The position numbers and the translations under genes are program-made. Of a stretch of 64,000 nt of DNA, positions 15,210 through 40,591 are shown piece by piece (within the stretch, counting starts at the first letter, position 1; every line of letters starts with the position of its first letter). The DNA is taken from IMG/VR virus record IMGVR_UViG_3300027749_000034. One strand, written 5' to 3'. The notes under the pieces are model-generated. The model was not told the origin of the DNA. It did no database searches and worked only from the letters and a program-made list of their open reading frames with translations. The stretch comes from a virus. Its lineage: Duplodnaviria > Caudoviricetes.

Positions 15210-15500
15210 TATTGCTGTATGAAGCAAAGAGAAAAGTGTTCTGGACGGGGGTGCGAATCCCCCCAGGTCCACCATAAGCACATAGTTGTCCTAGATGAAA
15301 GAAACCTCTTAGGGCTCTAGTGGGGATTGTGTGCTTTTGATGGGCCTGACCTAGATTCGACAGGGCAACAAGTAACAGAGTGGACAGCACGACAGCGATA
15401 GTCGTAAAAACTAAACAAAAGTAACCGCAAACGACTCACAGTTCGCATTAGCGGCCTAACAGCCACTTAGGGTAAGACATACCTCGTAACAGAAACTCAG
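15210..15500 (+). ncRNA. ssrA: tmRNA, circularly permuted two-piece form
   Basis: T-arm plus CAGGTCC-ACCA (ends 15274) precedes the 5' end GGGCCTG (15342) with G3.U; tag ORF ANDSQFALAA*; ends are approximate. Confidence 0.93.
15427..15459 (+). other. tmRNA proteolysis tag reading frame (ANDSQFALAA*)
   Basis: gca aac gac tca cag ttc gca tta gcg gcc taa. Confidence 0.9.
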
Positions 15501-15528
15501 AAAAGGTTGCTTCGGCAACCTTTTTCTT
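15501..15528 (+). terminator. intrinsic terminator
   Basis: AAAAGGTTGC-TTCG-GCAACCTTTTT. Confidence 0.9.
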
Positions 15529-15576
15529 TATAAGTATTTTTATAATACGAACATTATCACACTAAAGAATATATCA

Positions 15577-16032
15577 ATGGCTGAAATATTAATTGCAACA
15601 GAACAAGATAAAAGCGGCACAGATGTGACAATTTATATGGCGCAAACAATTGCCGGAAGTCCGGTGTATCCATTTTATTTAAAAAATTATGCAGAATTAA
15701 TGGATGCAGGTTTGGCTCAATCTCTGCTGTATTCATCAAATCGAACCAAAGCAGTATATGCAACGATTGACAATAAGGTTGTTGGAAACATAGTTTATGA
15801 AATACAAGAAGATGTTTTCAAGTCCTGCTACTTGTTGTTTAGTGCAGTTGACGAAAATTTTAGACAGCGTGGAATTTTGAAATTGATGCACAACCACTTT
15901 GAAGTTATTATTAAAAAACAAGGTGCAAAAAAATTGTACAGCTTTGTCCATGTAGATAATGCGCCCCGAATCGCCAGTTGTGTGGGCCTAGGTTTAGAAA
16001 AGCAATTTTATAAAATGTATAAAGTGTTGTAA
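15577..16032 (+). CDS. GNAT acetyltransferase
   Basis: VDENFRQRGI acetyl-CoA motif, HVDN motif. Confidence 0.8.
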   Translation: MAEILIATEQDKSGTDVTIYMAQTIAGSPVYPFYLKNYAELMDAGLAQSLLYSSNRTKAVYATIDNKVVGNIVYEIQEDVFKSCYLLFSAVDENFRQRGILKLMHNHFEVIIKKQGAKKLYSFVHVDNAPRIASCVGLGLEKQFYKMYKVL

Positions 16033-16072
16033 AAATACAACACTTGACCATTGTTTCCCTTTGTGCTATAAT
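16025..16072 (+). promoter_or_regulatory. palindromic operator plus sigma70 promoter
   Basis: TGTTGTAAAAATACAACA (16025-42) then TTGACC-17-TATAAT. Confidence 0.8.
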
Positions 16073-16095
16073 ACTGTATGAAACAGGAGAATCAT

Positions 16096-16599
16096 ATGGA
16101 ATTAGTAGAAAGAGCCAGAATTTTTGCAACAGCGGCCCATACCGCTGTGGCACAATTACGGAAGTACACTAATGAGCCGTACATTGTGCATCCTGCCGAA
16201 GTGGCCGGCATTGTTGCCACAGTTCCCCACACTCCCGAAATGTTAGCGGCCGCTTGGTTGCATGATGTGGTTGAAGACACTGGTGTTACCAACGAAGTGA
16301 TCCGTGCTGAATTTGGCGCCACAGTTGCAGAGTTGGTTGGCTGGTTAACTGATGTCAGCAGGCCCGAACAAGGCAATCGTGCTGTCCGCAAGGCAATAGA
16401 CCGGGCACATACTGCTGGTGCACCTGCTGAAGCACAGACTGTAAAGTTGGCCGACTTGATCTCAAACACCAGAAGCATTGTGGCACAAGATGTTGCCTTT
16501 GCCAAAGTGTACTTGGAAGAAAAGCGGTTGTTGTTGGAAGTGTTGACTCGTGGTGATGCCACATTGATGGCAGAAGCCAGGACCAGTGTGTCTAAATGA
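16096..16599 (+). CDS. HD-domain small alarmone hydrolase-like protein (SpoT/Mesh1 family)
   Basis: AH...RKY..EPYIVHP, WLHDVVEDT, VKLADLISN. Confidence 0.85.
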   Translation: MELVERARIFATAAHTAVAQLRKYTNEPYIVHPAEVAGIVATVPHTPEMLAAAWLHDVVEDTGVTNEVIRAEFGATVAELVGWLTDVSRPEQGNRAVRKAIDRAHTAGAPAEAQTVKLADLISNTRSIVAQDVAFAKVYLEEKRLLLEVLTRGDATLMAEARTSVSK

Positions 16600-16763
16600 T
16601 CAGCGAACAAGACCTTGTGTTTCGTTTGAGAAAAAGAGCAGAGATCCGGCGGCAAATTTCGACTCGAAAGAGTGTACAAGAAGGAGCCCCGGATCGAATT
16701 GCCGACCTGTTGGAAGAAGCCGCAGATGAAATCGAAAGACTTAGAAAAAATGAACCAGCCTAG
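16596..16763 (+). CDS. small hypothetical protein (not in ORF track)
   Basis: MISEQDLVFRLRKRAEIRRQ...DLLEEAADEIERLRK, fills the gap with overlaps at both ends. Confidence 0.7.
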   Translation: MISEQDLVFRLRKRAEIRRQISTRKSVQEGAPDRIADLLEEAADEIERLRKNEPA

Positions 16764-17220
16764 ATTGTACATGTTGATTGGAATCCCCGGTGCAGGTAAA
16801 AGTACCTGGATTAAAAATCAGCCTTGGGCCTTGGGGCTGACTGTGGTCAGTACAGATGCGTTTGTAGAAGATTATGCCAGAGCCCAAGGCAAGACCTATT
16901 CCGAAGTGTTTGAGGAATACATGCCCACTGCTGTTGACCTAATGAGTCAACAGATTGTATTTGCTCGAGATCACGGTCATACTGTAATTTGGGATCAGAC
17001 CAGTACCACAGTTAAAAGTCGTGCTAGAAAGTTTCGCATGTTGCCCAACTACTATCACATTGCTGTGGTGTTTAAAATACCAGACCATGTAGAATTAGCT
17101 CGCCGCTTGGCCGCAAGACCTGGCAAAGTAATTCCAGATCGAGTGCTGGATGATATGATTATTAATTGGGATGAGCCAGAAGAAGAAGAAGGCTTTGACG
17201 AGATCTGGTATATATCGTAA
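16750..17220 (+). CDS. P-loop kinase (polynucleotide kinase/AAA_33-like)
   Basis: LIGIPGAGKST, VSTD, WDQTS. Confidence 0.82.
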   Translation: MNQPRLYMLIGIPGAGKSTWIKNQPWALGLTVVSTDAFVEDYARAQGKTYSEVFEEYMPTAVDLMSQQIVFARDHGHTVIWDQTSTTVKSRARKFRMLPNYYHIAVVFKIPDHVELARRLAARPGKVIPDRVLDDMIINWDEPEEEEGFDEIWYIS

Positions 17221-17756
17221 TGAAAACATGGGTTACTTCTGACATACATTTTAGTCACACCAACATTTTAAAATTCTGTGCTGACAGTAGGCCGTTTCAC
17301 GACATCACTGAAATGAATACTGCAATTATCAACAATCACAATAGTGTGGTTGGTTATGATGATTTGGTTTACATACTGGGTGACATTGCATTTACCGATG
17401 CAATTTCAGCATCCAGGCTGTTGAATCGAATGAATGGAAAAAAGATTCTGATCAAGGGCAATCACGATGTCAAGCTGTTGAGAGATCAAACTTTTAGAAA
17501 CTGTTTTGCAGAGATACACGAATACTTGGAACTTGGTTACAAAGAATTCCGGATTGTATTGTTTCATTATCCAATTTGGGAATGGGATATGATGCATAGA
17601 GGTGCGCTACACTTCCATGGTCACTGCCATGCTAGGCCCACCGGTGTTCCTGGCAGGATCTTGGATGTCAGCATGGATGGAAACAATTGCTTTCCTTACA
17701 GTATGGATGAAGCAGTTCAATTGGCCATGAAAAAAATTGTCAGAAGTCACCATTGA
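17220..17756 (+). CDS. calcineurin-like metallophosphoesterase
   Basis: SDIHF, LGD, GNHD, FHYP, HGHCH. Confidence 0.88.
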   Translation: MKTWVTSDIHFSHTNILKFCADSRPFHDITEMNTAIINNHNSVVGYDDLVYILGDIAFTDAISASRLLNRMNGKKILIKGNHDVKLLRDQTFRNCFAEIHEYLELGYKEFRIVLFHYPIWEWDMMHRGALHFHGHCHARPTGVPGRILDVSMDGNNCFPYSMDEAVQLAMKKIVRSHH

Positions 17757-17812
17757 CAACTGCGATAACTTCAGCTATAATAACTTTGCAACAATCATTT
17801 TAGGAGATTTAT

Positions 17813-18346
17813 ATGATCACAATGAAAGAGTGGATGGAATTGGTTGACTATAAAATTACCGAAGGTAGTGAATATGGTTGGTCGTGTTATGGCCCAAATG
17901 CTTACTGTTTAGACTCATGGAATGGAGTACATGGTGCAGGTGGATATAGTTTTAGCATTGTATTCAGTACTAAAACACAAAAGGTCTACGAAGTCAGTGT
18001 ATGTGACTATACCAATGACCGTGCCTATCGTATGATTGTAGAGAACAAGCAGGACAAGCACCGCAAGGAAGCAGAATCCAAAAGCGAACTGGCCAATCAA
18101 GCATGGGACGATGTCAACTATATTGATTTGGATGTTGATGATGATTTTTTCCAAAAATCACTGGCCATCAAAGAAGGAGATGAGTATGACACTCGTATAC
18201 TGGTTCCGGTTGACTTCAGTGATGACGATTTGTTGCACTACATGAAAATAGCACATGATATGGACATCACATTCAACGAATTTGTTGAAATGGCACTAGA
18301 AGAAGCCATAGCAAAGCATCAAATATTGCCAAAATCCGACGATTAA
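17813..18346 (+). CDS. hypothetical protein
   Basis: 177-aa ORF, AGGAG RBS, upstream TTGACA/TATAAT. Confidence 0.75.
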   Translation: MITMKEWMELVDYKITEGSEYGWSCYGPNAYCLDSWNGVHGAGGYSFSIVFSTKTQKVYEVSVCDYTNDRAYRMIVENKQDKHRKEAESKSELANQAWDDVNYIDLDVDDDFFQKSLAIKEGDEYDTRILVPVDFSDDDLLHYMKIAHDMDITFNEFVEMALEEAIAKHQILPKSDD

Positions 18347-18350
18347 GGTT

Positions 18351-18368
18351 ATTACAGATTGTTTACAA
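18351..18368 (-). promoter_or_regulatory. possible Pho-box-like tandem repeat
   Basis: TTGTAAA-CAAT-CTGTAAT (11-bp period) on minus strand, upstream of porin-like gene. Confidence 0.3.
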
Positions 18369-18436
18369 TCTATAAATAGTGTTCACAGTTAAGTATTTTC
18401 GAATACTTGGGTGTATATAAAAAGGAAATATAATTT

Positions 18437-18997: not shown

Positions 18998-19017
18998 TTT
19001 TTTAAATTAGTTTCACC

Positions 19018-19043
19018 AAAAGCCACCACTACGGTGGCTTTTG
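19018..19043 (+). terminator. intrinsic terminator
   Basis: AAAAGCCACC-ACTAC-GGTGGCTTTT. Confidence 0.8.
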
Positions 19044-19112
19044 TGTTTTTGCAGTACATAACTATAATGTAAGACAACAGTTTTACGACACACTCAAACA
19101 CAGGAGATTATT

Positions 19113-19379: not shown

Positions 19380-19498
19380 TAAACGGTAGTTTCGCCAAAA
19401 GAAGTCTATGTGGCTAACACCTCATAGACTTTCTGTTTAAGTAATGTTACAATGTTAAAAGCATCACAATTAGTGATGTAATAATTTAAGGAAACACA

Positions 19499-19914: not shown

Positions 19915-21984
19915 ATGAAACTCAAAGCACTAACCTTAGCAATTTTATTGGCCCTGGGCAGTACAGCCTACGCTCAGACCAAAGCACTAAATTATGAAGC
20001 GCAGGAAATTTCAACAGCACTTGTAAAAACAGGTGTACCAGTTGCATGGTCCAGGGGGTTCACTGGCAAAGGTATAACAATTGCCATTGTTGATCAGGGC
20101 TTTGATTTAACTCATGCAGACTTTGCCAATAAAATTGTTGGCAGTAAAAATTTCTATGATCCAGCATCAGCGGTAACTTGGGGCCATCATGGAACACTGA
20201 TGGCCGGCATCGCGGCCGCAAATAAAAACGGTTCAGGTACAGTTGGTGTTGCACCTGATGCTAACTTATTGTTGGCTCAAGTGGGAGCTGGTGGCAGTTC
20301 AGTTGGCATTAATTTTACCGCAGTAAAGCAAGCAGTGGATTGGGCCAGTGCCAACGGCGCATCAGTTATCAATCTGAGCCTTGGATCCGTGTTTGATCCA
20401 AATTTTACCAATGGTATCTCTCAAATGTCTGCAGGAATTTATAAAGCACCTGCCGCATATGGATCATTGTATGGTTATAGTACAACCGATGTGCAAGCAT
20501 TTGCTGTAGGTACCAACAGAGGAAGTATCATTGTTGCGGCCGCAGGCAATCAGGGACTGGCATACTCACAGGTACCTGGCATGTTTGCCACGCAGGTTGA
20601 TAGCACAGGTAAACTAGTACTTGGCGGCAAAATGCTGATTGTTGGATTTGCTGATACCAACGGCAATATTGCCACAGCATCAAACAAGGCCGGCTCCATT
20701 TGTAATAACATATCTGGCTCTACCTGTAACGATCCTTATCTTGTCAAAGACTTTTATGTTGTTGCGCCAGGCATGCAGTTGTATGGCTCAGTGGCCAATC
20801 AATATGGATTGAAAGATGACAAAGGCAATTTGAACACCAGCGGCTCAATTGCAGTTACTGGATCCAGTGGCGCCACGGCCTATGTGTCAGGTGGCGTGGC
20901 GTTGATGAAACAGGCGTGGCCACAGTTAAGGTCAGAACAAATTGTTTCATTGATTCTAAATACAGCCACGCCAATGGGCGATTCAAATGTTACCGGTCGC
21001 GGCATGGTTAACTTTGACAAGGCAACCCAGCCAATGGGCACAGTTACACTGGCCAACATGACCAAATTGAATGGCTCTGGACCACAAGGTAAAACAGTTG
21101 GCCTCACTGGCACCGGAGTAGCTACATCTGGTGCAATTAGTTTGGCCACCAGCTCAGTGCTACAAAATACTCAAGTGGTTGACAGCATTGGTCGTAACTA
21201 TACTGTAAACTTAACACAGGCAGTTGGATTTACCAACTCAATGAGTTACCAATATGCCAGTCCTTGGATGGCTATGGCTTCGTCAAACTACAGACACATG
21301 GCAGTACCATTTGGTAAAGATGGTGTAATAACATTCATGACCAGTGACACAGGTACCGCAAGTCAATATGAGTGGCAACATAGTGAGCGCACTCGACTTA
21401 ACTTTGAAGTGGGTGCATTAAAGGAATTGAATAGTGTACTTGGTTCACAAGGTGGTGGCGCATTGGCATTTGGCGGTAGCAATACCACATGGTTTGGTGG
21501 CGGCGGCAGTTACAAGATTGCCGAGAATACTGCACTGATTGGAAAATATACTGTGGGCTTTACCAAAACCTCCAATGTACAAGATAGTATGGTACAATTA
21601 GACTCTACAATTATAAGCGACTCATGGAAGCTTGGAGCATCACAAGAACGAGTGTTTATCAATCAAGGCAAATTACATGATGAAATTACTCTAGCCGTGG
21701 CACAACCAGTACAAGTACGAAGTGGTAGTGCAACAGTAACTGGAGTCACATCTTACACATACACAGACAATGGTGATGGCACAAGTACTGCAAATCCGCA
21801 GTCACAAACAATGCGTTCAAGCTTGGCTCCGCAAGTTCGTGAAATGGATCTGGTACTTGGTTATACTGTCAAACATACCAATGCAACCAGTGTTGGATTT
21901 AATGTGGTACGCCAGTTCAATGCAGGTGGTGCCGCAGGTGTACAAGCAACAGGATTTTCAATAATGGCCCGTAGCGTATTTTAA
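19915..21984 (+). CDS. S8 subtilisin-like protease with C-terminal autotransporter-like beta domain
   Basis: Signal peptide; triad IAIVD / HGTLMAG / GSSGA; AAAGN oxyanion Asn; terminal Phe. Confidence 0.85.
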   Translation: MKLKALTLAILLALGSTAYAQTKALNYEAQEISTALVKTGVPVAWSRGFTGKGITIAIVDQGFDLTHADFANKIVGSKNFYDPASAVTWGHHGTLMAGIAAANKNGSGTVGVAPDANLLLAQVGAGGSSVGINFTAVKQAVDWASANGASVINLSLGSVFDPNFTNGISQMSAGIYKAPAAYGSLYGYSTTDVQAFAVGTNRGSIIVAAAGNQGLAYSQVPGMFATQVDSTGKLVLGGKMLIVGFADTNGNIATASNKAGSICNNISGSTCNDPYLVKDFYVVAPGMQLYGSVANQYGLKDDKGNLNTSGSIAVTGSSGATAYVSGGVALMKQAWPQLRSEQIVSLILNTATPMGDSNVTGRGMVNFDKATQPMGTVTLANMTKLNGSGPQGKTVGLTGTGVATSGAISLATSSVLQNTQVVDSIGRNYTVNLTQAVGFTNSMSYQYASPWMAMASSNYRHMAVPFGKDGVITFMTSDTGTASQYEWQHSERTRLNFEVGALKELNSVLGSQGGGALAFGGSNTTWFGGGGSYKIAENTALIGKYTVGFTKTSNVQDSMVQLDSTIISDSWKLGASQERVFINQGKLHDEITLAVAQPVQVRSGSATVTGVTSYTYTDNGDGTSTANPQSQTMRSSLAPQVREMDLVLGYTVKHTNATSVGFNVVRQFNAGGAAGVQATGFSIMARSVF

Positions 21985-26018: not shown

Positions 26019-26094
26019 GCGGGCGTAGCTCAGTTGGTAGAGCATTACCTTGCCAAGGTAAATGTCGTCGGTTCGAACCCGATCGCCCGCTCCA
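26019..26094 (+). tRNA. tRNA-Gly(GCC)
   Basis: Cloverleaf, TTACC-TT GCC AA-GGTAA, CCA encoded. Confidence 0.97.
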
Positions 26095-26098
26095 GGCT

Positions 26099-26272
26099 TG
26101 TTGTAGAAATACAACAAAAATAAAGGCAGATAGTTGTTGACAGGAATGAGTAGATAGCATATACTAGTTGAATACTGTAGCAATACAGCAGAAACAGTTT
26201 GAAAAGTGTTGTAGAAATACAACAAAAGAAAGTTAGAAAACGGTTGACATTACGGCATTGTCCGTATATAAT
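26099..26272 (+). promoter_or_regulatory. tandem operator plus sigma70 promoters (rrn P1/P2-like)
   Basis: Operators 26099-116 and 26207-224; TTGACA-17-TATACT (26137-65) and TTGACA-17-TATAAT (26244-72). Confidence 0.85.
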
Positions 26273-26280
26273 AACCAAAC

Positions 26281-26315
26281 ACTACAGCGAAAGTTGTAGT
26301 GATTGTTCTTTAAAA
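26281..26315 (+). promoter_or_regulatory. boxB-like hairpin plus boxA antitermination site
   Basis: ACTACAGC-GAAA-GTTGTAGT then TGTTCTTTAAAA. Confidence 0.7.
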
Positions 26316-26331
26316 ATTTGGTGGCATTTGT

Positions 26332-26406
26332 GCTCGATTCGTCTATCGGTTAGGACATCTGGTTTTCATCCAGGCAAGAGCGGTTCGATTCCGCTATCGA
26401 GTACCA
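26332..26406 (+). tRNA. tRNA-Glu(TTC)
   Basis: Cloverleaf, loop TT TTC AT, CCA. Confidence 0.95.
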
Positions 26407-26615
26407 TATGCAAGAATACTAAGGTTACCTAGACCACTAGGCGACTGGGATGATGGCAGTGCCGACGGGTGCTGGTCAAGTCCAGGAGCATGAAACAGGC
26501 GCAAGCTGGATTTGCGGTGGACAATCTAGGAGTAATGACCGTGCAGGCCTATACGAGACGTTCGTATATGGTAGACATAGATGCACAATGGTTCCTTTAG
26601 TATTCTTACATATGG
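26404..26615 (+). ncRNA. unknown structured RNA enclosed by 21-bp stem
   Basis: 26404-24 pairs 26595-615 with one C/A mismatch; internal hairpins. Confidence 0.6.
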
Positions 26616-26619
26616 TATT

Positions 26620-26705
26620 GCGAGTATGGTGAAATCTGGTAGACACAAGAGACTTAAAATCTCTCGCCGCAAGGTGTCCCGGTTCGACTCCGGGTACTCG
26701 CACCA
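26620..26705 (+). tRNA. tRNA-Leu(TAA)
   Basis: Type II cloverleaf, loop CT TAA AA, CCA. Confidence 0.96.
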
Positions 26706-26779
26706 AAATTAAGGCAATTGGGTTGTCAACCTAATTGGAGGCTAAGGCGTTATTAGTATATGCACTCCAGGAGAACAGC

Positions 26780-26920
26780 ATGTCAAATGATATATTAGCC
26801 CAAGTAAGAGAGATGTTGGATCGTACAAGAGATCCTTTTGAGATCGCGCACAAGTTGCATATTGATCTTGAATTTGTACAACAAGCAATGTCAATTTTAC
26901 TGAACAAAGTGTTAGCCTAA
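26780..26920 (+). CDS. small hypothetical (HTH-like) protein
   Basis: AGGAG RBS; PFEIAHKLHIDLEFVQQAM. Confidence 0.65.
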   Translation: MSNDILAQVREMLDRTRDPFEIAHKLHIDLEFVQQAMSILLNKVLA

Positions 26921-26928
26921 ACAAATTT

Positions 26929-27003
26929 GGTCTGTTCGTATAGAGGTTATTACTGTGGATTGTCTATCCACTTACGGGGGTTCGATTCCCCCACAGACCG
27001 CCA
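26929..27003 (+). tRNA. tRNA-Asp(GTC)
   Basis: Cloverleaf, loop TT GTC TA (U37), CCA. Confidence 0.93.
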
Positions 27004-27009
27004 ATTTTT

Positions 27010-27085
27010 TCCGCCTTAGCTCAGTTGGTAGAGTAGATGACTGTTAATCATTTGGTCCCTGGTTCGAGCCCAGGAGGTGGAGCCA
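27010..27085 (+). tRNA. tRNA-Asn(GTT)
   Basis: Cloverleaf, loop CT GTT AA, CCA. Confidence 0.96.
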
Positions 27086-27122
27086 AGAAAACATCAGTTT
27101 CTTTCATTTTACAAAGGCAATT

Positions 27123-27347
27123 ATGACATACATCAGTCGAGGAGTTGACATTGATACAGATCAATGTGTACAAAATGTTGGAGGCAATCGATTCAACTTG
27201 GTTTTAATTGCCGCGGCAAGAGCCAGGGAAATTAGTCAAAACAATAGAGAAAGTGTTCGCACAGAACATCTCCATACACCAGTAACTGCATTACTTGAAG
27301 TCCAAGATGGTAAGTTGGGGTATGAAGGAATACGAAAAGTTCGTTAA
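27123..27347 (+). CDS. rpoZ: RNA polymerase omega subunit homologue
   Basis: VGGNRFNLVLIAAARAREI ... PVTALLEVQDGK matches omega signature NRFDLVLVAARRARQ...VIALREIEEG. Confidence 0.85.
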   Translation: MTYISRGVDIDTDQCVQNVGGNRFNLVLIAAARAREISQNNRESVRTEHLHTPVTALLEVQDGKLGYEGIRKVR

Positions 27348-27353
27348 GTATAT

Positions 27354-27429
27354 CGCGGGGTACGTCAGTGGTCAGACTGCTAGGCTCATAACCTAGAAGA
27401 CGGAGGTTCGAATCCTTCCCCCGCAACCA
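27354..27429 (+). tRNA. tRNA-fMet(CAT), initiator-like
   Basis: CGCGGGG 5' end with C1xA72 mismatch, loop CT CAT AA. Confidence 0.9.
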
Positions 27430-27430
27430 G

Positions 27431-27624
27431 ACGTTCCGAGTGTCTTCGGATAGTGTGACCCACACGATGAGAAGTAGTGTGACAACTACGGGTGGTAGTC
27501 TTTGAACCGAAAGGCCGCTGGCAATGCGATAACGGAACCTGTCGGGAAGTGGGTGGAAGCCGTGTGTGATGGTGTTGGGGGTTCCTGGCGCTTGATACGG
27601 TACAATTACCACCGGGGTTCGCAG
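27431..27624 (+). ncRNA. unknown pseudoknotted structured RNA
   Basis: GTTCCG/CGGAAC (27433/27533) crosses GGTGGTA/TACCACC (27491/27607); GNRA hairpins. Confidence 0.5.
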
Positions 27625-27696
27625 AGCATATTAAAACACACTCTAACCGCAAGGTGACAAGTGAGCTCATGTTCATGAAGTGTGTTTCAATATGTT
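27625..27696 (+). ncRNA. long-stem hairpin cassette
   Basis: 18-bp stem AGCATATTAAAACACACT/AGTGTGTTTCAATATGTT with one A/C mismatch. Confidence 0.55.
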
Positions 27697-27700
27697 TTTC

Positions 27701-27776
27701 GGGGGTGTAGCTCATTTGGGAGAGCGCCTGCTTTGCAAGCAGGATGTAGCAAGTTCGATCCTTGTCACCTCCACCA
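27701..27776 (+). tRNA. tRNA-Ala(TGC)
   Basis: GGGGGTG acceptor with G3.U70, loop TT TGC AA. Confidence 0.96.
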
Positions 27777-27796
27777 TTATTATAAAGGAAAGTCGT

Positions 27797-27964
27797 ATGC
27801 ACGAAGCTGGTAAGGGCGATAGCCCAAGACCCTACAGCGTTGATTCAAAAACTTACTCAGACAATTGGGACACAATTTTTGGTAAGAAAGACAACAACGA
27901 TAAAAAAGAAATTGTTGATTCTTTGGACAAAAAACCAACAGACAACAATCCTGCGGCTAAGTAA
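27797..27964 (+). CDS. small hypothetical protein
   Basis: AAGGA RBS; GKGDSPRP...NWDTIFGK motif. Confidence 0.7.
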   Translation: MHEAGKGDSPRPYSVDSKTYSDNWDTIFGKKDNNDKKEIVDSLDKKPTDNNPAAK

Positions 27965-27968
27965 GATT

Positions 27969-28409
27969 ATGTTGCACTTGATTCAAACACTGGGGGAAAA
28001 TATACTGGACTTGATCAGTCAAGACCCAGTACGCCCACATATTCCTGCAAATGATAGGATTGGCAACAACAAAGAAATTTTTGTACTCAAAAATGAAGAC
28101 GACTCAGTTCGTGCAATCACCTGCGTAAGTTATCAAAACAGTATTCCCAAGTCTGAACTGGATTTGTTTATTTCAGATGTAGAACCAGACACAGCAGTTT
28201 TTTATACAATTTGGAGTTACAAGCCCGGAGCAGGCCGTCAGTTGATTTTTGATGCAGTTGACTACATCAAAAAAAATAAACCAAGTATAACAAAGTTTGT
28301 TACACTAAGTCCTAAAACAGAAATGGCCAAGCGTTTTCATACCAAGAACGGTGCTATTATTTTTAGAGAAAACGAAGAGTCAACAAACTACGAATATTTG
28401 CATCCTTAA
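27969..28409 (+). CDS. hypothetical protein (possible GNAT-like fold)
   Basis: QDPVRPHIP, FYTIWSYKPGAGRQLI, TLSP..EMAKRFH; stop codon lies inside tRNA-Val. Confidence 0.7.
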   Translation: MLHLIQTLGENILDLISQDPVRPHIPANDRIGNNKEIFVLKNEDDSVRAITCVSYQNSIPKSELDLFISDVEPDTAVFYTIWSYKPGAGRQLIFDAVDYIKKNKPSITKFVTLSPKTEMAKRFHTKNGAIIFRENEESTNYEYLHP

Positions 28410-28475
28410 CTCAGTTGGTAGAGTTCCTCGCTTACACCGAGGCTGTCGGCGGTTCGAGCCCGTCAGGATGTACCA
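28400..28475 (+). tRNA. tRNA-Val(TAC)
   Basis: Cloverleaf, loop CT TAC AC, CCA. Confidence 0.95.
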
Positions 28476-28497
28476 AACAACATAAGTAAATTTCAAC

Positions 28498-28573
28498 GCC
28501 CTTGTAGCTCAGCTGGTAGAGCACCGCACTTGTAATGCGGGGGTCCCGTGTTCGATTCATGGCGGGGGCACCA
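28498..28573 (+). tRNA. tRNA-Thr(TGT)
   Basis: Cloverleaf, loop CT TGT AA, CCA. Confidence 0.95.
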
Positions 28574-28586
28574 TTTTTAATCACCC

Positions 28587-28835
28587 ATGTGGGAATACCT
28601 AGTAACCTTTTTTGCGATCTTTTTACTTGACATTGTTTACACCTACTACTTGCGGTGTGTGGCCAATGACAATGTGTTAGGTGCAAGTTTTTGGTCAATA
28701 GCCTGTTATATTCTAGGAAGTGTGGCAGTTATAAATTACACAACCAATCATTGGTTAATGATTCCAGCCGTGGCAGGTGCGTTTTGCGGCACCTGGGTTG
28801 GAATGAAAATTAAGAAGAAACAATTCGGAGTGTAG
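28587..28835 (+). CDS. small multi-pass membrane protein
   Basis: Three hydrophobic helices; stop codon lies inside tRNA-Pro. Confidence 0.7.
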   Translation: MWEYLVTFFAIFLLDIVYTYYLRCVANDNVLGASFWSIACYILGSVAVINYTTNHWLMIPAVAGAFCGTWVGMKIKKKQFGV

Positions 28836-28902
28836 CGCAGTCTGGTAGCGCACCTGGTTTGGGACCAGGGGGTCCAAGGTTCGAATCCTTGTACTCCGAC
28901 CA
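28826..28902 (+). tRNA. tRNA-Pro(TGG)
   Basis: CGGAGTG acceptor, loop TT TGG GA, CCA. Confidence 0.96.
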
Positions 28903-29103
28903 AGTACCCCGGGCACCTCTGCCCGTTATACAAGAGGGGGATATTAGCAAACCCATAGACGCTACGGTGCATTGGATCTACCGCAAGGCCCATTTACGGC
29001 GACTTGAGAAATCACAAAGGCAGGAACTGTACTGTCTAAATAGAAAAATAGTTGGACGGGGTAACCACCCAGTCTGGGGCTCTTGTGGTGAGAGTAGCCA
29101 GAC
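28903..29103 (+). ncRNA. unknown structured RNA
   Basis: Nested hairpins GTCTGG/CCAGAC, GTCTAA/TTGGAC, GGGT/ACCC, CC-GCAA-GG. Confidence 0.45.
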
Positions 29104-29233
29104 ACTTTATAAAAGCCGTTTGAGTAGCTACAATGGAACACCGAAATACTTCTCAATACTAGTCAGTAGAAGGACCGGCCATGAAGAGTAGGGCTACCGC
29201 GAATTCAAGCGTCACAGACGGCCTCTATAAAGT
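29104..29233 (+). ncRNA. long-stem-enclosed structured RNA
   Basis: 18-bp closing stem 29104-21/29216-33 with A/C mismatches, abutting tRNA-Gly. Confidence 0.5.
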
Positions 29234-29307
29234 GCGGGATTAGTTTAATGGTAAAACTACAGATTTCCAATCTGTTGTCGTCAGTTCGATTCTGACATTC
29301 CGCTCCA
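29234..29307 (+). tRNA. tRNA-Gly(TCC)
   Basis: Cloverleaf, loop TT TCC AA, U73-CCA. Confidence 0.95.
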
Positions 29308-36107: not shown

Positions 36108-36170
36108 CCCATTGACAATCTGTGGCGATTGCTGTATAATAGCAGTAATCGCTTTTCTTTTGGAGAAATT

Positions 36171-36581: not shown

Positions 36582-36646
36582 CTGCGGTCCAAAATAAATA
36601 GTCCATACAACTTAGAGTTGAATTTAAGTTAACATGGGTTATTTCA

Positions 36647-37696: not shown

Positions 37697-37697
37697 C

Positions 37698-38090
37698 ATG
37701 AGCGCACCAGCTATCACAATTGGATGTGTGTCCAATCTCTACAGCAGACAAATGCACTTTGTCAATGCAGGCGATGTTGAACTGGGTCATACTCACTTGT
37801 ATGATCATTTCACATTGTTGGCCGCTGGTAGTCTTAGAGTCACTGTAGATGGTGCTGATAATGTGTTTACTGCACCACATATGATTTTCATTAAAAAAGA
37901 CAAAAATCATAGATTAGAAGCACTGGAGAACAACACAGTGGCCTACTGTATACATGCTCTTAGAAACAATGACGGATCAGGTGATATAATGGATCCCAAC
38001 ATGATACCCATGATACCACCTGATGGTGGTACCTATCAACCAGGCTCCGAAGGCCTAGTGACTCCGAGTTTACCCGATTGGATGAAATAA
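37698..38090 (+). CDS. cupin-fold protein
   Basis: GHTHLYDH...F.APHMIFI...H cupin metal motifs. Confidence 0.7.
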   Translation: MSAPAITIGCVSNLYSRQMHFVNAGDVELGHTHLYDHFTLLAAGSLRVTVDGADNVFTAPHMIFIKKDKNHRLEALENNTVAYCIHALRNNDGSGDIMDPNMIPMIPPDGGTYQPGSEGLVTPSLPDWMK

Positions 38091-38093
38091 CAA

Positions 38094-38153
38094 ATGGCAC
38101 TACAATCATCCGGAGCCATGAATGCCAGTGATATCAATGCCGAACTCACATAA
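38094..38153 (+). pseudogene. truncated copy of the Gly-rich adhesin N-terminus
   Basis: MALQSSGAMNASDINAELT* aligns with MTIRSSGALPASEINAELG. Confidence 0.65.
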
Positions 38154-38203
38154 TGTTGTAAAAATACAACACCGGTTGACAAACTGATTTTTTGTGCTAT
38201 AAT
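38154..38203 (+). promoter_or_regulatory. operator plus sigma70 promoter
   Basis: TGTTGTAAAAATACAACA then TTGACA-16-TATAAT. Confidence 0.8.
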
Positions 38204-38223
38204 AGTCTTTTAGAAGGATTTAT

Positions 38224-38445
38224 ATGACCAACAAACAACGAGCTGTATTTGAAACTGTCAAGATGGTTGTAATTTTTATTGTAATGGGTCTGACATTCAG
38301 TACCATCATACAAACTGGCTATGGCGTATACTTGGGTATTGCCATGGTTGCACTTGGCGTGGTGTATGCATTGATCATGATGTATGAAATGAAGCTGGGC
38401 CAAATTGAATCAAAACAAAGACTAGACGAACTATCAAAAAATTAA
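38224..38445 (+). CDS. small two-TM membrane protein
   Basis: Two hydrophobic helices, AAGGA RBS. Confidence 0.7.
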   Translation: MTNKQRAVFETVKMVVIFIVMGLTFSTIIQTGYGVYLGIAMVALGVVYALIMMYEMKLGQIESKQRLDELSKN

Positions 38446-38472
38446 TAATTTTAGCCTTAACGCAACAAGAGG

Positions 38473-38501
38473 TTGACAACAAGGCTAAGTAAGTGTACAA
38501 T
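38473..38501 (+). promoter_or_regulatory. sigma70 promoter of leader/attenuator 2
   Basis: TTGACA-17-TACAAT. Confidence 0.8.
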
Positions 38502-38508
38502 GATTACT

Positions 38509-38628
38509 ATGACGAACACATTCATATCAAGACTATCGCAGTGGTGCTCAAAACAGAGCATGAGCTTCTGTGACTCCTTTAGTATGAGCTATCATGTTCG
38601 CCATATTCTAGGAGCTCATCCAGGATAA
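38509..38628 (+). CDS. putative leaderless Ser-rich leader peptide (39 aa)
   Basis: MTNTFISRLSQWCSKQSMSFCDSFSMSYHVRHILGAHPG*; starts at predicted TSS. Confidence 0.55.
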   Translation: MTNTFISRLSQWCSKQSMSFCDSFSMSYHVRHILGAHPG

Positions 38629-38649
38629 AGTAATCAGACCGTTTACTTG

Positions 38650-38678
38650 AACCCTGGACTAACACTCCGGGGTTTTTT
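38650..38678 (+). terminator. attenuator-type intrinsic terminator 2
   Basis: AACCCTGGA-7nt-TCCGGGGTT-TTTT; stem identical to terminator 1. Confidence 0.85.
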
Positions 38679-38697
38679 CTTTTTGTGATAAGGAACA

Positions 38698-38853
38698 ATG
38701 ACATTAGATAAAAAGATCAAAGAAGCAGAGTGGACACGCACTCATACATTGAGCAAAGAGCAGTTACAAAAATTGCTCCGTGACAAGATGAAGAGAGCGC
38801 AACACATGCATCAGTTAAACAAGCGAGAGATGTTGACTCAGAGACATCGTTGA
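38698..38853 (+). CDS. small basic hypothetical protein (not in ORF track)
   Basis: TAAGGA RBS; MTLDKKIKEAEWTRTH... Confidence 0.6.
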   Translation: MTLDKKIKEAEWTRTHTLSKEQLQKLLRDKMKRAQHMHQLNKREMLTQRHR

Positions 38854-38864
38854 TCGCCAAGTGG

Positions 38865-38894
38865 TTGACAGGAAACGAGGTCCTGTGCTACACT
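38865..38894 (+). promoter_or_regulatory. sigma70 promoter
   Basis: TTGACA-18-(TG)TACACT. Confidence 0.6.
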
Positions 38895-38955
38895 ATAAAC
38901 AAGCACAAACGGGCGGTACTAGGGATGAAGCACCTTGTGTGGTGTGAAAAATCTA

Positions 38956-39051
38956 GTATATTAAAGCATATACTTGCCTGACTGCAAACGTCGTGGTAAA
39001 CTACTAGAGAAAGGGGTTCAAATCCCCGGGACTGGTATGTGCTTTAATATA
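38956..39051 (+). ncRNA. tRNA-like RNA in an 18-bp closing stem
   Basis: GTATATTAAAGCATATAC/GTATGTGCTTTAATATAC; inner T-arm GGGG-TTCAAAT-CCCC; TGGTAA D-loop-like segment. Confidence 0.6.
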
Positions 39052-39098
39052 CACATTGAGCTGGCCAGGACTGTAATGTCGCAGACAGTGTGTTTAAC

Positions 39099-39183
39099 GG
39101 AGAAGAAGCATCAATGGTGATGCAGTGGACTGTAAATCCGCCGCCTTCGGGCACGACTGGTTCGATCCCAGTATTCTCCACCA
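39099..39183 (+). tRNA. tRNA-Tyr(GTA)
   Basis: Type II cloverleaf, loop CT GTA AA. Confidence 0.95.
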
Positions 39184-39188
39184 ATTTA

Positions 39189-39280
39189 GGAAGTGTGGCC
39201 GAGTCCGGTTTATGGCACTAGTCTTGAAAACTAGCGGAGGGTTAAACCTCCCGTGAGTTCGAATCTCACCGCTTCCGCCA
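39189..39280 (+). tRNA. tRNA-Ser(TGA)
   Basis: Type II cloverleaf, loop CT TGA AA, G73. Confidence 0.96.
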
Positions 39281-39287
39281 TGTCAAT

Positions 39288-39362
39288 GGGCCAGTAGCTT
39301 AATGGTAAAGCAACCGACTCATAATCGGTCGAGTCTTGGTTCAATTCCAAGCTGGCCCACCA
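39288..39362 (+). tRNA. tRNA-Ile2(CAT) (lysidine type) or Met
   Basis: GGGCCAG acceptor resembling Ile2, loop CT CAT AA. Confidence 0.85.
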
Positions 39363-39368
39363 GTTTAT

Positions 39369-39443
39369 GCCCTGTTAGTTCAACGGATAGAATTAGAGTC
39401 TTCGAAACTCAGGATGGTGGTTCGATTCCATCACAGGGCGCCA
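39369..39443 (+). tRNA. tRNA-Arg(TCG)
   Basis: Cloverleaf, loop CT TCG AA. Confidence 0.9.
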
Positions 39444-39446
39444 AGT

Positions 39447-39646
39447 TTTGTTAGAGTGTCAGCAAGAGAAAGACTCGCTAGAAGGCTTCTTCGAAGGGCC
39501 GACTAATGTTAAAGAAGGACGGGTTCAAGTCCCGTAAACGCAGTGGAGCACCTTTGTCCTGTATCCCAAGTGACTTACCGAATCCCGCTCGAGCTTGTTA
39601 ATTCGGGTGAATGGTGCTTATAATGTGGTAGCACTACTTTAACAAA
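39447..39646 (+). ncRNA. long-stem-enclosed structured RNA with T-arm
   Basis: TTTGTTAGAGT/ACTTTAACAAA closing stem; ACGGG-TTCAAGT-CCCGT at 39519-35. Confidence 0.55.
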
Positions 39647-39654
39647 TTCAACAT

Positions 39655-39732
39655 GTACAGATGCCCGAGAGGCCCAAGGGAACTGATTGCAAACCAGTAA
39701 AGCCGTCGGTTCAAATCCGACTCTGTACTCCA
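39655..39732 (+). tRNA. tRNA-Cys(GCA)
   Basis: GTACAGA/TCTGTAC, loop TT GCA AA, U73. Confidence 0.92.
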
Positions 39733-39733
39733 A

Positions 39734-39808
39734 GGTAATGTAGCATAATGGTAGTGCGCCTGCTTCATACGCAGTCCAGTGCTAGTTCGACTCTAGCCAT
39801 TACCACCA
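39734..39808 (+). tRNA. tRNA-Met(CAT), elongator-like
   Basis: GGTAATG acceptor, loop TT CAT AC. Confidence 0.88.
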
Positions 39809-39828
39809 ATTTTATAGGAGAGCCTGTT

Positions 39829-39966
39829 ATGGCCAGTGTCAAGAAAGGAACGATGACTCGTTCACCACAGTGGTGGAAACACCTTAAAGAATGGAAGCGT
39901 GTGTTCTGGAAAGCAGAACGACAAGCTCACAAAAAAGCGGGTATAGCTCAGTTGGTAGAGCAGTAG
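39829..39966 (+). CDS. small Trp/Lys-rich protein
   Basis: AGGAG RBS; PQWWKHLKEWKRVFWK; last 10 codons overlap tRNA-Lys. Confidence 0.6.
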   Translation: MASVKKGTMTRSPQWWKHLKEWKRVFWKAERQAHKKAGIAQLVEQ

Positions 39967-40012
39967 ACTTTTAATCTATTGGTCGTGGGTTCGAATCCCT
40001 CTGCCCGCACCA
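39937..40012 (+). tRNA. tRNA-Lys(TTT)
   Basis: Cloverleaf, loop CT TTT AA, CCA. Confidence 0.96.
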
Positions 40013-40025
40013 ATAAATAGTTGTA

Positions 40026-40370
40026 ATGAAAATTCAGCAAGACAGCACCGGACTTTATATTGAAACAGATGAAGTAGTCTGTCGTCCAGTTGAATCAAGT
40101 CAATTCAAATCAGATGAAGAGGTTCGGCTGGCACTTGATGCTGAAATAGCCACGGTCAGTGATGCCAATGATCGCGGTGCAAATGCCTTTGAAGAACAGT
40201 GGCAAGCAGTATACAAATCTCAGCCGGCTAGAGTTACGTCAGCGCCGGTAACTCATCCACCCATGTATTATGTAGAACACACAGGTTGGTATACTGCAAT
40301 CATAATCCTACTGGGCGTCACTGGGTTTGACCTTGGTCTTCTTGTTGGCACCATCTGGGCCAGGCTTTAA
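40026..40370 (+). CDS. hypothetical protein with C-terminal TM helix
   Basis: 114-aa ORF; TAAATA at 40014. Confidence 0.65.
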   Translation: MKIQQDSTGLYIETDEVVCRPVESSQFKSDEEVRLALDAEIATVSDANDRGANAFEEQWQAVYKSQPARVTSAPVTHPPMYYVEHTGWYTAIIILLGVTGFDLGLLVGTIWARL

Positions 40371-40478
40371 TTCCAACGGTTGAAACTGCAACTTGGCTTT
40401 GGCCAGAAGAGCATCTGGTTTAAAGTCTGCAGGTAAACACCAGGTGGCGCTGGGCAACAATTTAGATTTAACACTCAT
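40308..40478 (-). CDS. possible small protein (56 aa)
   Basis: MSVKSKLLPSATWCLP...; TAAATA 4 nt upstream; overlaps the + strand ORF end. Confidence 0.3.
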   Translation of the reverse strand: MSVKSKLLPSATWCLPADFKPDALLAKAKLQFQPLELKPGPDGANKKTKVKPSDAQ

Positions 40479-40501
40479 ACAGTATTTAAGATCATTTAGG
40501 T

Positions 40502-40574
40502 GTGACCTTAGTGTTAGCGGTCAGCACCTCGGATTGTGATTCCGATAGGATGGGTTCAAATCCCATAGGTCACC
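40502..40574 (+). tRNA. tRNA-His(GTG) lacking encoded G-1 and CCA
   Basis: GTGACCT/AGGTCAC, loop TT GTG AT, C73; T at -1; flanks extend the stem. Confidence 0.9.
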
Positions 40575-40591
40575 CCTAAACGATCTTTATT

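What the first reader, a model, noticed from the sequence alone, without database searches (positions are those of the whole stretch)
15275..40586. Family of long AU-rich closing stems with a shared sequence bracketing RNAs in the tRNA arrays
Seen: 11-21-bp stems at 15276/15336 (tmRNA intervening segment), 26404/26615, 27625/27696, 29104/29233, 38956/39051, 39047/39096, 39447/39646 and 40489/40586 (around tRNA-His). Four share 5' arms AAGCACATA, AAGAATACT, AAACACACT and AAGCATATA. Two have an A/C mismatch in the same register just before that 9-mer. Interiors are unrelated. Inference: a common processing or recognition module (RNase III-like or phage nuclease) releases different cargo RNAs. 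Its presence in the tmRNA spacer and around a real tRNA suggests that the other cargoes are functional, undescribed RNAs.
Basis: partly seen in the sequence, partly recalled or inferred. Interest (0 to 1): 0.82.

Follow-up and report, generated by a model that had tools for sequence, protein, structure and literature searches.

The report
Shared closing stems in phage tRNA arrays
An uncultured freshwater giant phage, like hundreds of related phage contigs, separates its tRNAs, its split tmRNA and several undescribed small RNAs with one near-identical 18-base-pair RNA hairpin stem that starts at the tRNA's CCA end and carries a fixed A-C mismatch; the stem most likely marks where the long transcript is cut.

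Summary
Seven of the eight stems fold better than shuffled sequence and/or are kept by compensatory changes in relatives. Only 39047/39096 is weak.

The stems are three things, not one:
- **Class I.** Five or six stems (27625, 26404, 38956, 29104, the tmRNA spacer, and a degenerate 39047) fit 5'-CCAUAUA[A]AAACACAYU...ARUGUGUUU[C]UAUAUGG-3'. I found 278 distinct oriented copies, all in tRNA-bearing loci from IMG/VR, and the strict pattern hit at least 120 contigs. Position 8 is A.C in 60% of copies and position 16 is U.G in 62%. The first three bases are the upstream tRNA's CCA in 66%.
- **Class II.** 39447/39646 is a different shared stalk (GUUUUGU/ACAAAUU). It closes "D", a ~200-nt covarying RNA found in at least 119 contigs.
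- **tRNA-His helix.** 40489/40586 is a covarying leader-trailer helix specific to tRNA-His.

Most class I interiors are not conserved (78 clusters among 118). D, C, M and P5 are conserved RNAs with no Rfam match.

The best reading is excised punctuation or processing hairpins, the same device as the tmRNA intervening segment. The nuclease is unknown, and no phage RNase III, Ro60 or RtcB was found in five large related contigs. This scan reported the same stalk family before on other phage DNA (e1-5318426, e1-5340144).

The parts
15182..15550 (+). Circularly permuted (two-piece) tmRNA gene, tag ANDSQFALAA. Context for the first stem.
   Evidence: ARAGORN; Rfam RF01850 at 136.5 bits and RF04321 at 121.8 bits.
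15275..15341 (+). tmRNA intervening segment, a single hairpin. Arms are 15276-15287 and 15325-15336. It lies between the CCA at 15272-15274 and G1 of the coding piece at 15342. Its inner helix resembles class I (AAGCACAUA).
   Evidence: Fold with z = -3.3. The relative L018 keeps the stem through two compensatory pairs while the interior is unrelated. All six phage permuted tmRNAs show the same layout.
26404..26615 (+). Element A: a class I stalk (arms 26404-26424 and 26595-26615) around a 170-nt GC-rich interior. It begins with the CCA of tRNA-Glu and ends 4 nt before tRNA-Leu. The C.A mismatch is at 26411/26608.
   Evidence: z = -4.5; weight-matrix rank 2/2. The stem ends are conserved and the interior diverged in L001. 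A public RNA-run contig joins 26410 to 26606 with the interior replaced or absent.
27430..27625 (+). M RNA: a ~196-nt conserved structured RNA directly after tRNA-Met. It is followed by, not enclosed in, a class I hairpin.
   Evidence: 97% identical in L001. Twenty distinct homologues at 69-97% identity; 23 of 45 predicted pairs show changes on both sides. No Rfam match.
27625..27696 (+). Hairpin H: the canonical class I stalk (arms 27626-27643 and 27678-27695) with the A27633.C27688 mismatch. The interior is not conserved.
   Evidence: z = -4.3; weight-matrix rank 1/1 and combined score 42.4, against a maximum of 22.4 in 100 shuffles. L001 keeps the arms, has a different and longer interior, and carries a second copy.
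28903..29103 (+). P5 RNA: a ~200-nt conserved RNA after tRNA-Pro.
   Evidence: Hits in 34 loci. Twenty-seven distinct homologues; 16 of 28 predicted pairs show changes on both sides. No Rfam match.
29104..29233 (+). C RNA: a conserved ~100-nt core inside a diverged class I stalk, ending at the first base of tRNA-Gly. The A29112.C29225 mismatch is in the family register.
   Evidence: z = -2.7. The core is 88% identical in L005, where it sits in a different spacer (Ser-Trp), and the inner stem covaries. The same core sits in a canonical class I stalk in L228 and L045. Twenty-four of 36 predicted pairs show changes on both sides.
38866..38955 (+). Promoter (TTGACA, 17 nt, TACACT) and conserved leader of tRNA array 2, directly upstream of element E.
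   Evidence: Read from the sequence. Homologous in 32 loci. Fifteen of 19 predicted pairs show changes on both sides.
38956..39052 (+). Element E: a class I variant stalk (GUAUAUUAAAGCAUAUAC) of 22 pairs in 24. Its interior carries a T-arm-like hairpin.
   Evidence: z = -5.0; weight-matrix rank 5/6. The arm sequence is kept in L017 and L005 with unrelated interiors. The interior is kept only in five close relatives.
39047..39096 (+). A weak, degenerate class I remnant that overlaps the 3' arm of E.
   Evidence: z = -0.6. Its interior is homologous to full class I hairpins in L036 and L081. L017 has a perfect TTGACA-17-TATAAT promoter at this position instead.
39446..39648 (+). D RNA: a ~200-nt structured RNA with a T-arm-like hairpin, closed by the class II stalk (5' UUUGUUAGAGUG paired with 3' CACUACUUUAACAAA).
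   Evidence: At least 119 IMG/VR contigs. In a 52-sequence alignment, 18 of 28 predicted pairs have compensatory changes, including long-range helices. 117 copies carry 60 different closing-stem arm pairs. It sits in other spacers in relatives, and is absent at this site in L017 and in an RNA-run contig. No Rfam match.
40489..40586 (+). tRNA-His (40502-40576) with an 11-bp leader-trailer helix that extends the acceptor stem. CCA is not encoded (the sequence reads CCU).
   Evidence: z = -4.1. Compensatory changes in L017. Twenty of 61 tRNA-His genes have a helix of 9 bp or more, against at most 4% of any other tRNA type.

Best explanation
The class I stems are excised punctuation hairpins of long tRNA/small-RNA transcripts.

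**Layout.** Each begins with the 3'-CCA of the stable RNA upstream: a tRNA, the tmRNA acceptor piece, or in relatives GOLLD; M in this window ends in ...GCA. Each ends at or just before the first G of the next tRNA or of the tmRNA coding piece. One 18-bp helix therefore pairs the 3' boundary of one RNA with the 5' boundary of the next.

**Inferred cutting.** RNase P cuts on the 3' side. On the 5' side, either the tRNA 3'-end machinery or a double-strand-specific nuclease (host RNase III being the obvious candidate) cuts within or at the foot of the helix. This frees both neighbours and releases the hairpin as an end-paired, exonuclease-resistant RNA.

**Interiors.** The interior can be filler (most copies) or a conserved cargo such as C.

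**Other stems.** A second stalk class does the same job for D and a few other cargoes. The tRNA-His leader-trailer helix is an analogous but unrelated device.

**Shown and inferred.** Shown: the architecture, its conservation, pairing in the sense RNA, and the identity of the device with the tmRNA intervening segment, which has to be removed. Inferred: which enzymes cut, where they cut, and why the sequence, the A.C mismatch and the U.G wobble are fixed.
For: - **Position.** The first three bases are the upstream tRNA's CCA in 73 of 118 and 111 of 160 copies. The hairpin often ends in the first GG of the next tRNA.
- **tmRNA.** In all six phage permuted tmRNAs the intervening segment is one such hairpin, with CCA paired to UGG. 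That segment is absent from mature tmRNA, and the transcript is cut by tRNA-processing enzymes (PMC11915505).
- **Other upstream RNAs.** The same hairpin directly follows GOLLD RNA in L123 and L117, and follows M in this window.
- **RNA-level selection on the tRNA strand.** Outside positions 8 and 16, G.U-type pairs outnumber A.C-type pairs 89 to 25.
- **Stem kept, interior lost.** Stems are kept by compensatory changes while interiors are lost, between the window and a relative with 87% protein identity.
- **Context.** All 110 independently sampled loci with the hairpin carry tRNAs.
- **Length.** Helices of 18-24 bp are long enough for RNase III. E. coli RNase III takes part in phage T4 tRNA maturation (PMC4810235).
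Against: - Host processing enzymes need little sequence, yet 15 of 18 stem positions are nearly invariant across hundreds of contigs, with a fixed A.C mismatch. This points to a sequence-specific partner that this model does not name.
- A pure spacer would not need a 40-150-nt interior.
- Most tRNA junctions in the same arrays manage with 5-8-nt spacers and no hairpin.
- No RNA ends were observed.
Confidence: 0.5

Rival explanations
1. The stalk is a protein-binding handle, as the Ro60-binding stem is in Y RNAs. A phage (or host) protein reads the conserved base pairs with the A.C mismatch and U.G wobble. The released hairpins and stalk-closed RNAs (C, E, D) then act as ribonucleoprotein particles.
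For: Sequence, not just pairing, is conserved, with two fixed non-Watson-Crick positions 8 bp apart. Conserved cargo C is presented on the canonical stalk in L228 and L045. E and D carry T-arm-like hairpins, as tRNA-mimicking Y RNAs do.
Against: No TROVE/Ro60 gene in five large related contigs, two of them complete. No match to Rfam YrlA at E up to 10 on any element. Most interiors are unconserved. No candidate binding protein was found among the small ORFs in the arrays.
Confidence: 0.2
2. The inverted repeats act at the DNA level. They could be recombination or mobility sites (like miniature transposable elements, invertible segments, or the promoter-stem-loop cassettes of T4-type phages) that shuffle and replace interiors and array modules.
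For: Interiors are swapped between close relatives. The same interior occurs in different stalk variants (L005 against L036). D and C sit in different spacers in different phages. L001 has an extra copy. Presence/absence variants occur in sequencing runs.
Against: Wobble statistics favour pairing in the sense RNA (89 G.U-type against 25 A.C-type pairs). The element is anchored exactly on CCA and on the next tRNA's +1. I saw no target-site duplication at filled against empty sites, and no inverted copy of an interior among tRNA-oriented hairpins (plus-strand clustering only).
Confidence: 0.08
3. The stalks bring the 5' and 3' ends together so that the cargo RNA can be ligated. D, and perhaps others, would then exist as circular RNA.
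For: One metatranscriptome contig (run X16, depth 179) joins the 3' end of a D variant directly to the first base of D, 39446. The junction pattern is absent from 2.9 million viral and 241 million metagenome DNA records, apart from one phage lineage (four records) in which a mini-hairpin precedes D. Three of five large relatives, including both complete ones, encode a PF09414 RNA ligase.
Against: This rests on a single contig in a single run, and the reads could not be inspected. Reverse-transcriptase template switching on an abundant small RNA, or an unsampled tandem D-D strain, would give the same result. Tandem stalk-closed units do exist in DNA. No RtcB was found.
Confidence: 0.08

Closest known systems
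Intervening segment of circularly permuted (two-piece) tmRNA genes (Rfam RF01850, RF04321; PMC11915505)
   Same: The hairpin at 15275-15341 is such a segment. It lies between the CCA of the acceptor piece and G1 of the coding piece and has to be removed. The hairpins in the tRNA spacers have the same CCA...UGG layout and a related arm sequence.
   Different: Here the same sequence-defined hairpin is reused between ordinary tRNAs, after GOLLD and M, and around cargo RNAs. I found no description of this in the papers searched.
RNase III processing stalks: the leader-trailer helices of bacterial rRNA operons, and RNase III in phage T4 tRNA maturation (PMC4810235)
   Same: A long helix formed by sequences flanking a stable RNA in a polycistronic precursor. 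At 18-24 bp it suits RNase III.
   Different: Cleavage was not shown here. rRNA stalks are not sequence-conserved across operon types. They do not start at a CCA, and they lack a fixed A.C mismatch.
Bacterial and phage Y RNAs (YrlA, Rfam RF02553) with Ro60/Rsr
   Same: A long terminal stem with a conserved non-canonical position. Some cargoes have tRNA-like T-arms. Encoded next to tRNAs in phages.
   Different: No match to RF02553. No TROVE gene in relatives. The stem sequence is unrelated, and most interiors are unconserved.
Stable RNAs species 1 and 2 (rnaC, rnaD) in the phage T4 tRNA cluster (from my own knowledge; not retrieved here)
   Same: Non-tRNA stable RNAs of unknown function, co-transcribed and processed with phage tRNAs in a T4-type phage.
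   Different: No sequence comparison was made. T4 has no repeated shared stalk that I know of.
GOLLD RNA (Rfam RF02032)
   Same: A large lake-phage RNA embedded in tRNA arrays. It is present in related contigs L123 and L117 and is directly followed by a class I hairpin.
   Different: None of the window's elements matches GOLLD. D, C, M and P5 are 100-200 nt.

Membership tests
Permuted tmRNA intervening segment | Lies between the acceptor-piece CCA and the coding-piece 5' end of a permuted tmRNA gene | tested here: met
   ARAGORN and Rfam place the gene at 15182-15550. The hairpin at 15275-15341 fills the gap. This applies only to the first stem.
Permuted tmRNA intervening segment | Absent from the mature RNA | not testable with these tools
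   Follows from tmRNA function (the CCA end must be free; PMC11915505). No reads showing RNA ends were available.
RNase III processing stalk | Helix of about two turns formed by the sequences that flank a stable RNA | tested here: met
   24/25, 22/24 and 17-18 bp for A, E and H. The family stem is 18 bp plus variable further pairs.
RNase III processing stalk | Staggered cleavage by RNase III within the helix | not testable with these tools
   Public RNA runs were available only as contigs, so no ends could be read. No phage RNase III gene in five relatives. A host enzyme would be needed.
YrlA / Y RNA | Match to the Rfam RF02553 covariance model | tested here: not met
   The only weak hits (18-21 bits against a 69-bit gathering score) lie on true tRNAs. 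None lies on any stalk element.
YrlA / Y RNA | Ro60/Rsr (TROVE) partner encoded by the phage or nearby | tested here: not met
   PF05731 is absent from five large related contigs, two of them complete. The window's own full genome is not held, and only its larger ORFs were scanned.
Transposable element or invertible segment bounded by inverted repeats | Target-site duplication, both orientations of the interior, or an associated recombinase | tested here: inconclusive
   No duplication at filled against empty sites. Orientation relative to the tRNAs is constant. A recombinase was not searched for.
Class I stalk family (defined here) | Arms matching CCAUAUA[A]AAACACAYU / ARUGUGUUU[C]UAUAUGG on the tRNA strand, inside a tRNA array | tested here: met
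   Met for 27625, 26404 and 38956. Weakly met for 29104, the tmRNA spacer and 39047. Not met for 39447 and 40489.

The most novel reading that the evidence does not exclude
The two stalk classes are sequence-specific handles of a modular phage RNA cassette system. An unidentified factor recognises the conserved helix (A.C at position 8, U.G at position 16), excises whatever RNA lies inside or beside it from tRNA-type transcripts, and in at least one case (D) joins the paired ends into a circular RNA. The many unrelated interiors are a fast-turning-over set of small RNAs, for example decoys or antisense RNAs against host defences.
Probability: 0.15. Interest if true: 0.9.

Novelty: new variant of a known kind. 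Interest (0 to 1): 0.72.

Why it matters
- It gives a simple, testable rule for how giant freshwater phages organise and cut their very large tRNA/small-RNA operons.
- It links the removal of the tmRNA intervening segment to ordinary tRNA spacing.
- The near-invariant stem with a fixed A.C mismatch is a concrete target for finding the nuclease or binding protein involved.
- The analysis also delimits at least four conserved structured RNA families that have no Rfam entry: D in at least 119 contigs, M in 21 loci, P5 in 34 and C in 14.
- The stalk pattern is an easy marker for annotating such RNAs in viral metagenomes. It could also serve as a natural design for releasing several RNAs from one transcript.

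Tried and rejected
- **Rfam.** Gathering thresholds on the whole window, E up to 10 on both arrays, and E up to 10 on D, M+H and P5+C alone gave nothing beyond tRNAs and the tmRNA.
- **GenBank phages.** blastn found only tRNA matches to the arrays and nothing for D, M or P5/C.
- **Whole genome.** None is held for this window.
- **Locus anchors.** The 323-aa protein at 41090 found no related loci.
- **Nuclease, ligase and Ro60 genes.** RNase III (PF14622), TROVE, RtcB and T4 Rnl1 families were not found in five related contigs. For Rnl1 the control genomes did not ring either, so that result says nothing.
- **RNase P idea for D.** D has a GAGAAAGUC/GACUUA pairing that recalls helix P4 of RNase P RNA. 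I dropped this because the helix order does not fit and Rfam gives no hit.
- **Promoter ideas for the arms.** I considered a MotA box or a late promoter and dropped both: the window's own arms deviate from those motifs, and the wobble pattern favours RNA pairing.
- **Public RNA runs.** They were available only as contigs. They show that the array regions are present in four metatranscriptomes, but they give no RNA ends. Uncovered parts are not evidence.
- **Prokaryote genomes.** The strict class I pattern hit one 1.5-kb contig binned to a Ca. Planktophila genome. That is too little to name a host.
- **Literature.** Three full-text searches found no description of this stalk.

Full report
**What the window is.** The window comes from an uncultured freshwater T4-like jumbo phage. 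That description is taken from earlier notes on the same genome. It is consistent with there being no close GenBank relative. The window carries 28 tRNA genes, in two main arrays (26019-29307 and 39189-41068) with six more spread out to 43583 (ARAGORN), a 29th tRNA-like gene at 39099-39180 that only Rfam calls, and a circularly permuted tmRNA at 15182-15550. Several tRNA-tRNA spacers are 70-330 nt long, GC-rich and free of ORFs. Rfam finds nothing in them.

**Checking the observation.** All eight stems appear in the minimum-free-energy folds.
- Six fold better than dinucleotide shuffles, with z from -2.7 to -5.0.
- 39047-39096 does not (z = -0.6).
- The 200-nt element D does not on energy alone (z = -1.0).
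- In a gapless scan of the whole 64 kb, the stems at 26400/26619 and 38956/39052 stand far above everything else.

**Relatives.** One relative with 87% protein identity is represented by L001-L004 for array 1, L017 for array 2 and L018 for the tmRNA. Two more distant relatives, L005 and L006, share 52% identity in a radical-SAM protein. At this divergence, unconstrained sequence no longer aligns. What survives is informative.
- **tmRNA spacer.** The stem is kept through two compensatory pairs (AAGCACA/UGUGCUU against AAACAUA/UAUGUUU). The interior is unrelated.
- **27625 hairpin.** L001 keeps the arms but has a longer, unrelated interior and a second copy.
- **38956 stem.** The arm sequence is kept in L017 and even in L005, again around unrelated interiors.
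- **tRNA-His helix.** It shows compensatory changes in L017.
- **Conserved neighbours.** 27430-27625 (M) is 97% identical and the C region at the 3' end of the Pro-Gly spacer is 93-96% identical.

**Class I stalk.** Searching every fetched locus for the arm motif revealed a very large family. On the tRNA strand the consensus is 5'-CCAUAUA[A]AAACACAYU ... ARUGUGUUU[C]UAUAUGG-3'.
- I found 118 distinct oriented copies in loci that had been collected for a different reason (they carry D).
It hit a single 1.5-kb contig among 185,579 prokaryote species genomes.
- In the 110 new loci there were 160 more copies, and every locus carried tRNAs (1,737 in all).

Per-position counts agree in both sets:
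- Positions 1-7 and 9-17 are almost always Watson-Crick, with some covariation at 6, 7, 14 and 18.
- Position 8 is A.C in 61 of 118 and 106 of 160 copies. The rest are mostly A-U or G-C.
- Position 16 is U.G in 75 of 118 and 96 of 160.
- Away from those two positions, G.U-type pairs outnumber A.C-type pairs 89 to 25 on the tRNA strand. It is therefore the sense RNA that is selected to fold.

The first three bases are the CCA of an upstream tRNA in 73 of 118 and 111 of 160 copies. That tRNA is tRNA-Lys in 46 and 61 of them. The hairpin frequently ends in the first GG of the next tRNA, most often tRNA-Met. Some arrays carry two to four hairpins in tandem.

Interiors are extremely diverse. There are 78 clusters among 118 copies, 57 of them singletons, and only 5 interiors carry a T-loop-like motif.

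**Which window stems belong to class I.** A weight matrix built from the other phages ranks the window's arms as follows among 63,983 positions:

| Stem | Rank (5' arm / 3' arm) |
|---|---|
| 27626 | 1 / 1 |
| 26404 | 2 / 2 |
| 38956 | 5 / 6 |
| 29105 | 83 / 245 |
| tmRNA spacer | 520 / 152 |
| 39041 | 91 / 33 |
| 39446 and 40489 | no match |

- The 29104 stem is a true, diverged member. Its conserved cargo C sits inside a canonical class I stalk in L228 and L045. The window copy keeps the A.C mismatch in register, at 29112/29225.
- The tmRNA spacer is a shortened member. All six phage permuted tmRNAs I could fetch, the window's included, have a spacer that is a single such hairpin, with CCA paired to UGG at the start of the coding piece.
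- In related contigs the same hairpin directly follows GOLLD RNA. In this window it follows M.

- A 52-sequence alignment shows a multi-helix RNA with long-range pairs. Eighteen of 28 predicted pairs carry compensatory changes.
- Its closing helix (GUUUUGUAAGUG with ACUACUUACAAAUU, and variants) occurs as 60 different arm pairs among 117 copies.
- The same GUUUUGU/ACAAAUU ends also close other, unrelated cargoes of 63-148 nt and a D-like paralogue. This makes it a second shared stalk class.
- D usually starts one base after a tRNA's CCA.
- It sits in different spacers in different phages: Arg-Cys here, Asp-Asn in L001, Val-Phe in L005 and Asp-Lys in L006. It is absent from the Arg-Cys site in L017 and in one RNA-run contig.

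**tRNA-His helix.** Twenty of 61 distinct tRNA-His genes have a leader-trailer helix of 9 bp or more that continues the acceptor stem. No other tRNA type exceeds 4%. The helices covary, and these genes lack an encoded CCA. The feature is real, but its sequence is unrelated to either stalk class.

**Other conserved RNAs.** M has 20 distinct homologues, P5 has 27, C has 10, and the array-2 leader has 15. All show many predicted pairs with changes on both sides. None has an Rfam match or a GenBank-phage match. These covariation counts are rough, because they rest on MAFFT alignments and RNAalifold without a statistical test.

**Mechanism.** The tmRNA case fixes the logic. There the hairpin must be removed to free the CCA end and G1, and permuted tmRNA transcripts are cut by tRNA-processing enzymes (PMC11915505). 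The same device sits between tRNAs, so the simplest reading is an excised punctuation hairpin.
- On the 3' side, RNase P cuts at the next tRNA's 5' end.
- On the 5' side, either 3'-end maturation back to the CCA or cleavage inside the 18-24-bp helix by RNase III. E. coli RNase III is known to act in T4 tRNA maturation (PMC4810235).

No RNase III, Ro60 or RtcB gene was found in five large related contigs, two of them complete, so a host enzyme would be needed. This model does not explain why 15 of 18 positions, the A.C mismatch and the U.G wobble are fixed across hundreds of contigs. That pattern suggests a sequence-specific partner, so I keep a protein-handle model as the main rival.

**An unresolved lead.** One metatranscriptome contig (run X16, depth 179) joins the 3' end of a D variant straight to D's first base. 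The junction pattern is absent from the viral and metagenome DNA collections, apart from one phage lineage (four records) in which a mini-hairpin with the same stalk precedes D. Possible explanations are a circular D RNA, a template-switching artefact, or an unsampled tandem strain. I could not inspect the reads.

**Novelty.** I found no description in Rfam or in the papers searched. This scan reported the same stalk family before on other phage DNA (e1-5318426, e1-5340144), and my results agree with those reports. This report adds:
- the position-by-position consensus;
- the CCA anchoring and the bias towards tRNA-Lys;
- the fixed A.C and U.G positions;
- the split into two stalk classes plus a tRNA-His-specific helix;
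- the finding that most class I interiors are not conserved.

Noticed in passing
window 27123-27347 (+): A 74-aa ORF inside tRNA array 1 matches the RNA polymerase omega/Rpb6 family (PF01192, E = 1.2e-9).
   Followed up: no
window 39829-39966 (+): A 45-aa, very basic, Trp-rich ORF (it contains SPQWWKHLKEWKRVFWK) sits just upstream of tRNA-Lys, and its last codons overlap the tRNA gene. It is conserved in L017 and L005 next to tRNA-Lys. It has no Pfam match.
   Followed up: partly
window 26095-26331, with copies near 16021, 19829, 38154, 60609-60673, 61203-61310 and 63979: Repeated units made of a short hairpin (GUUGUAGAAAUACAACAA) followed by a TTGACA...TATA-type promoter. They resemble the promoter-stem-loop cassettes described for T4-type phages.
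   Followed up: no
window 39099-39180 (+): A tRNA-like gene missed by ARAGORN (Rfam tRNA, 35.3 bits). It is 90% identical to the annotated tRNA-Tyr of Limnohabitans phage DC31.
   Followed up: partly
window 39446-39648; public RNA run X16: A metatranscriptome contig (depth 179) joins the 3' end of a D variant head-to-tail to D's first base. No such junction appears in the DNA collections searched. It could be circular RNA, an artefact or an unsampled tandem copy.
   Followed up: partly
L123 4861-5326 and L117 314-778 (related contigs): GOLLD RNA (Rfam RF02032, 216 and 202 bits) lies inside the tRNA arrays of related phages. A class I hairpin, and then tRNA-Met in L123, follows it immediately.
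   Followed up: partly
window 40502-40576 and 61 tRNA-His genes in the fetched loci: There are two classes of phage tRNA-His. One has an encoded CCA and is often preceded by a class I hairpin. The other lacks an encoded CCA (CCU) and is enclosed in a covarying 9-17-bp leader-trailer helix, with a mismatch at the -2/74 position next to the expected RNase P site.
   Followed up: partly
L141, L179, L180, L243 (related contigs): A D-like paralogue family (~171-184 nt) has the same GUUUUGUAAGUG start but a different core (it lacks AGCAAGAGAA).
   Followed up: no
L138 (CAZQNP010000058.1, 1478 bp): The only prokaryote-genome hit for the class I pattern is a short contig binned to a Ca. Planktophila (acI actinobacterial) genome. 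It is probably a mis-binned phage fragment, though it could hint at the host.
   Followed up: no
window 19915-21984 and 43482-44432 (+): An S8 subtilase (PF00082, E = 1.6e-37) and a D-Ala-D-Ala carboxypeptidase (PF00768, E = 1e-38) are encoded near the arrays.
   Followed up: no
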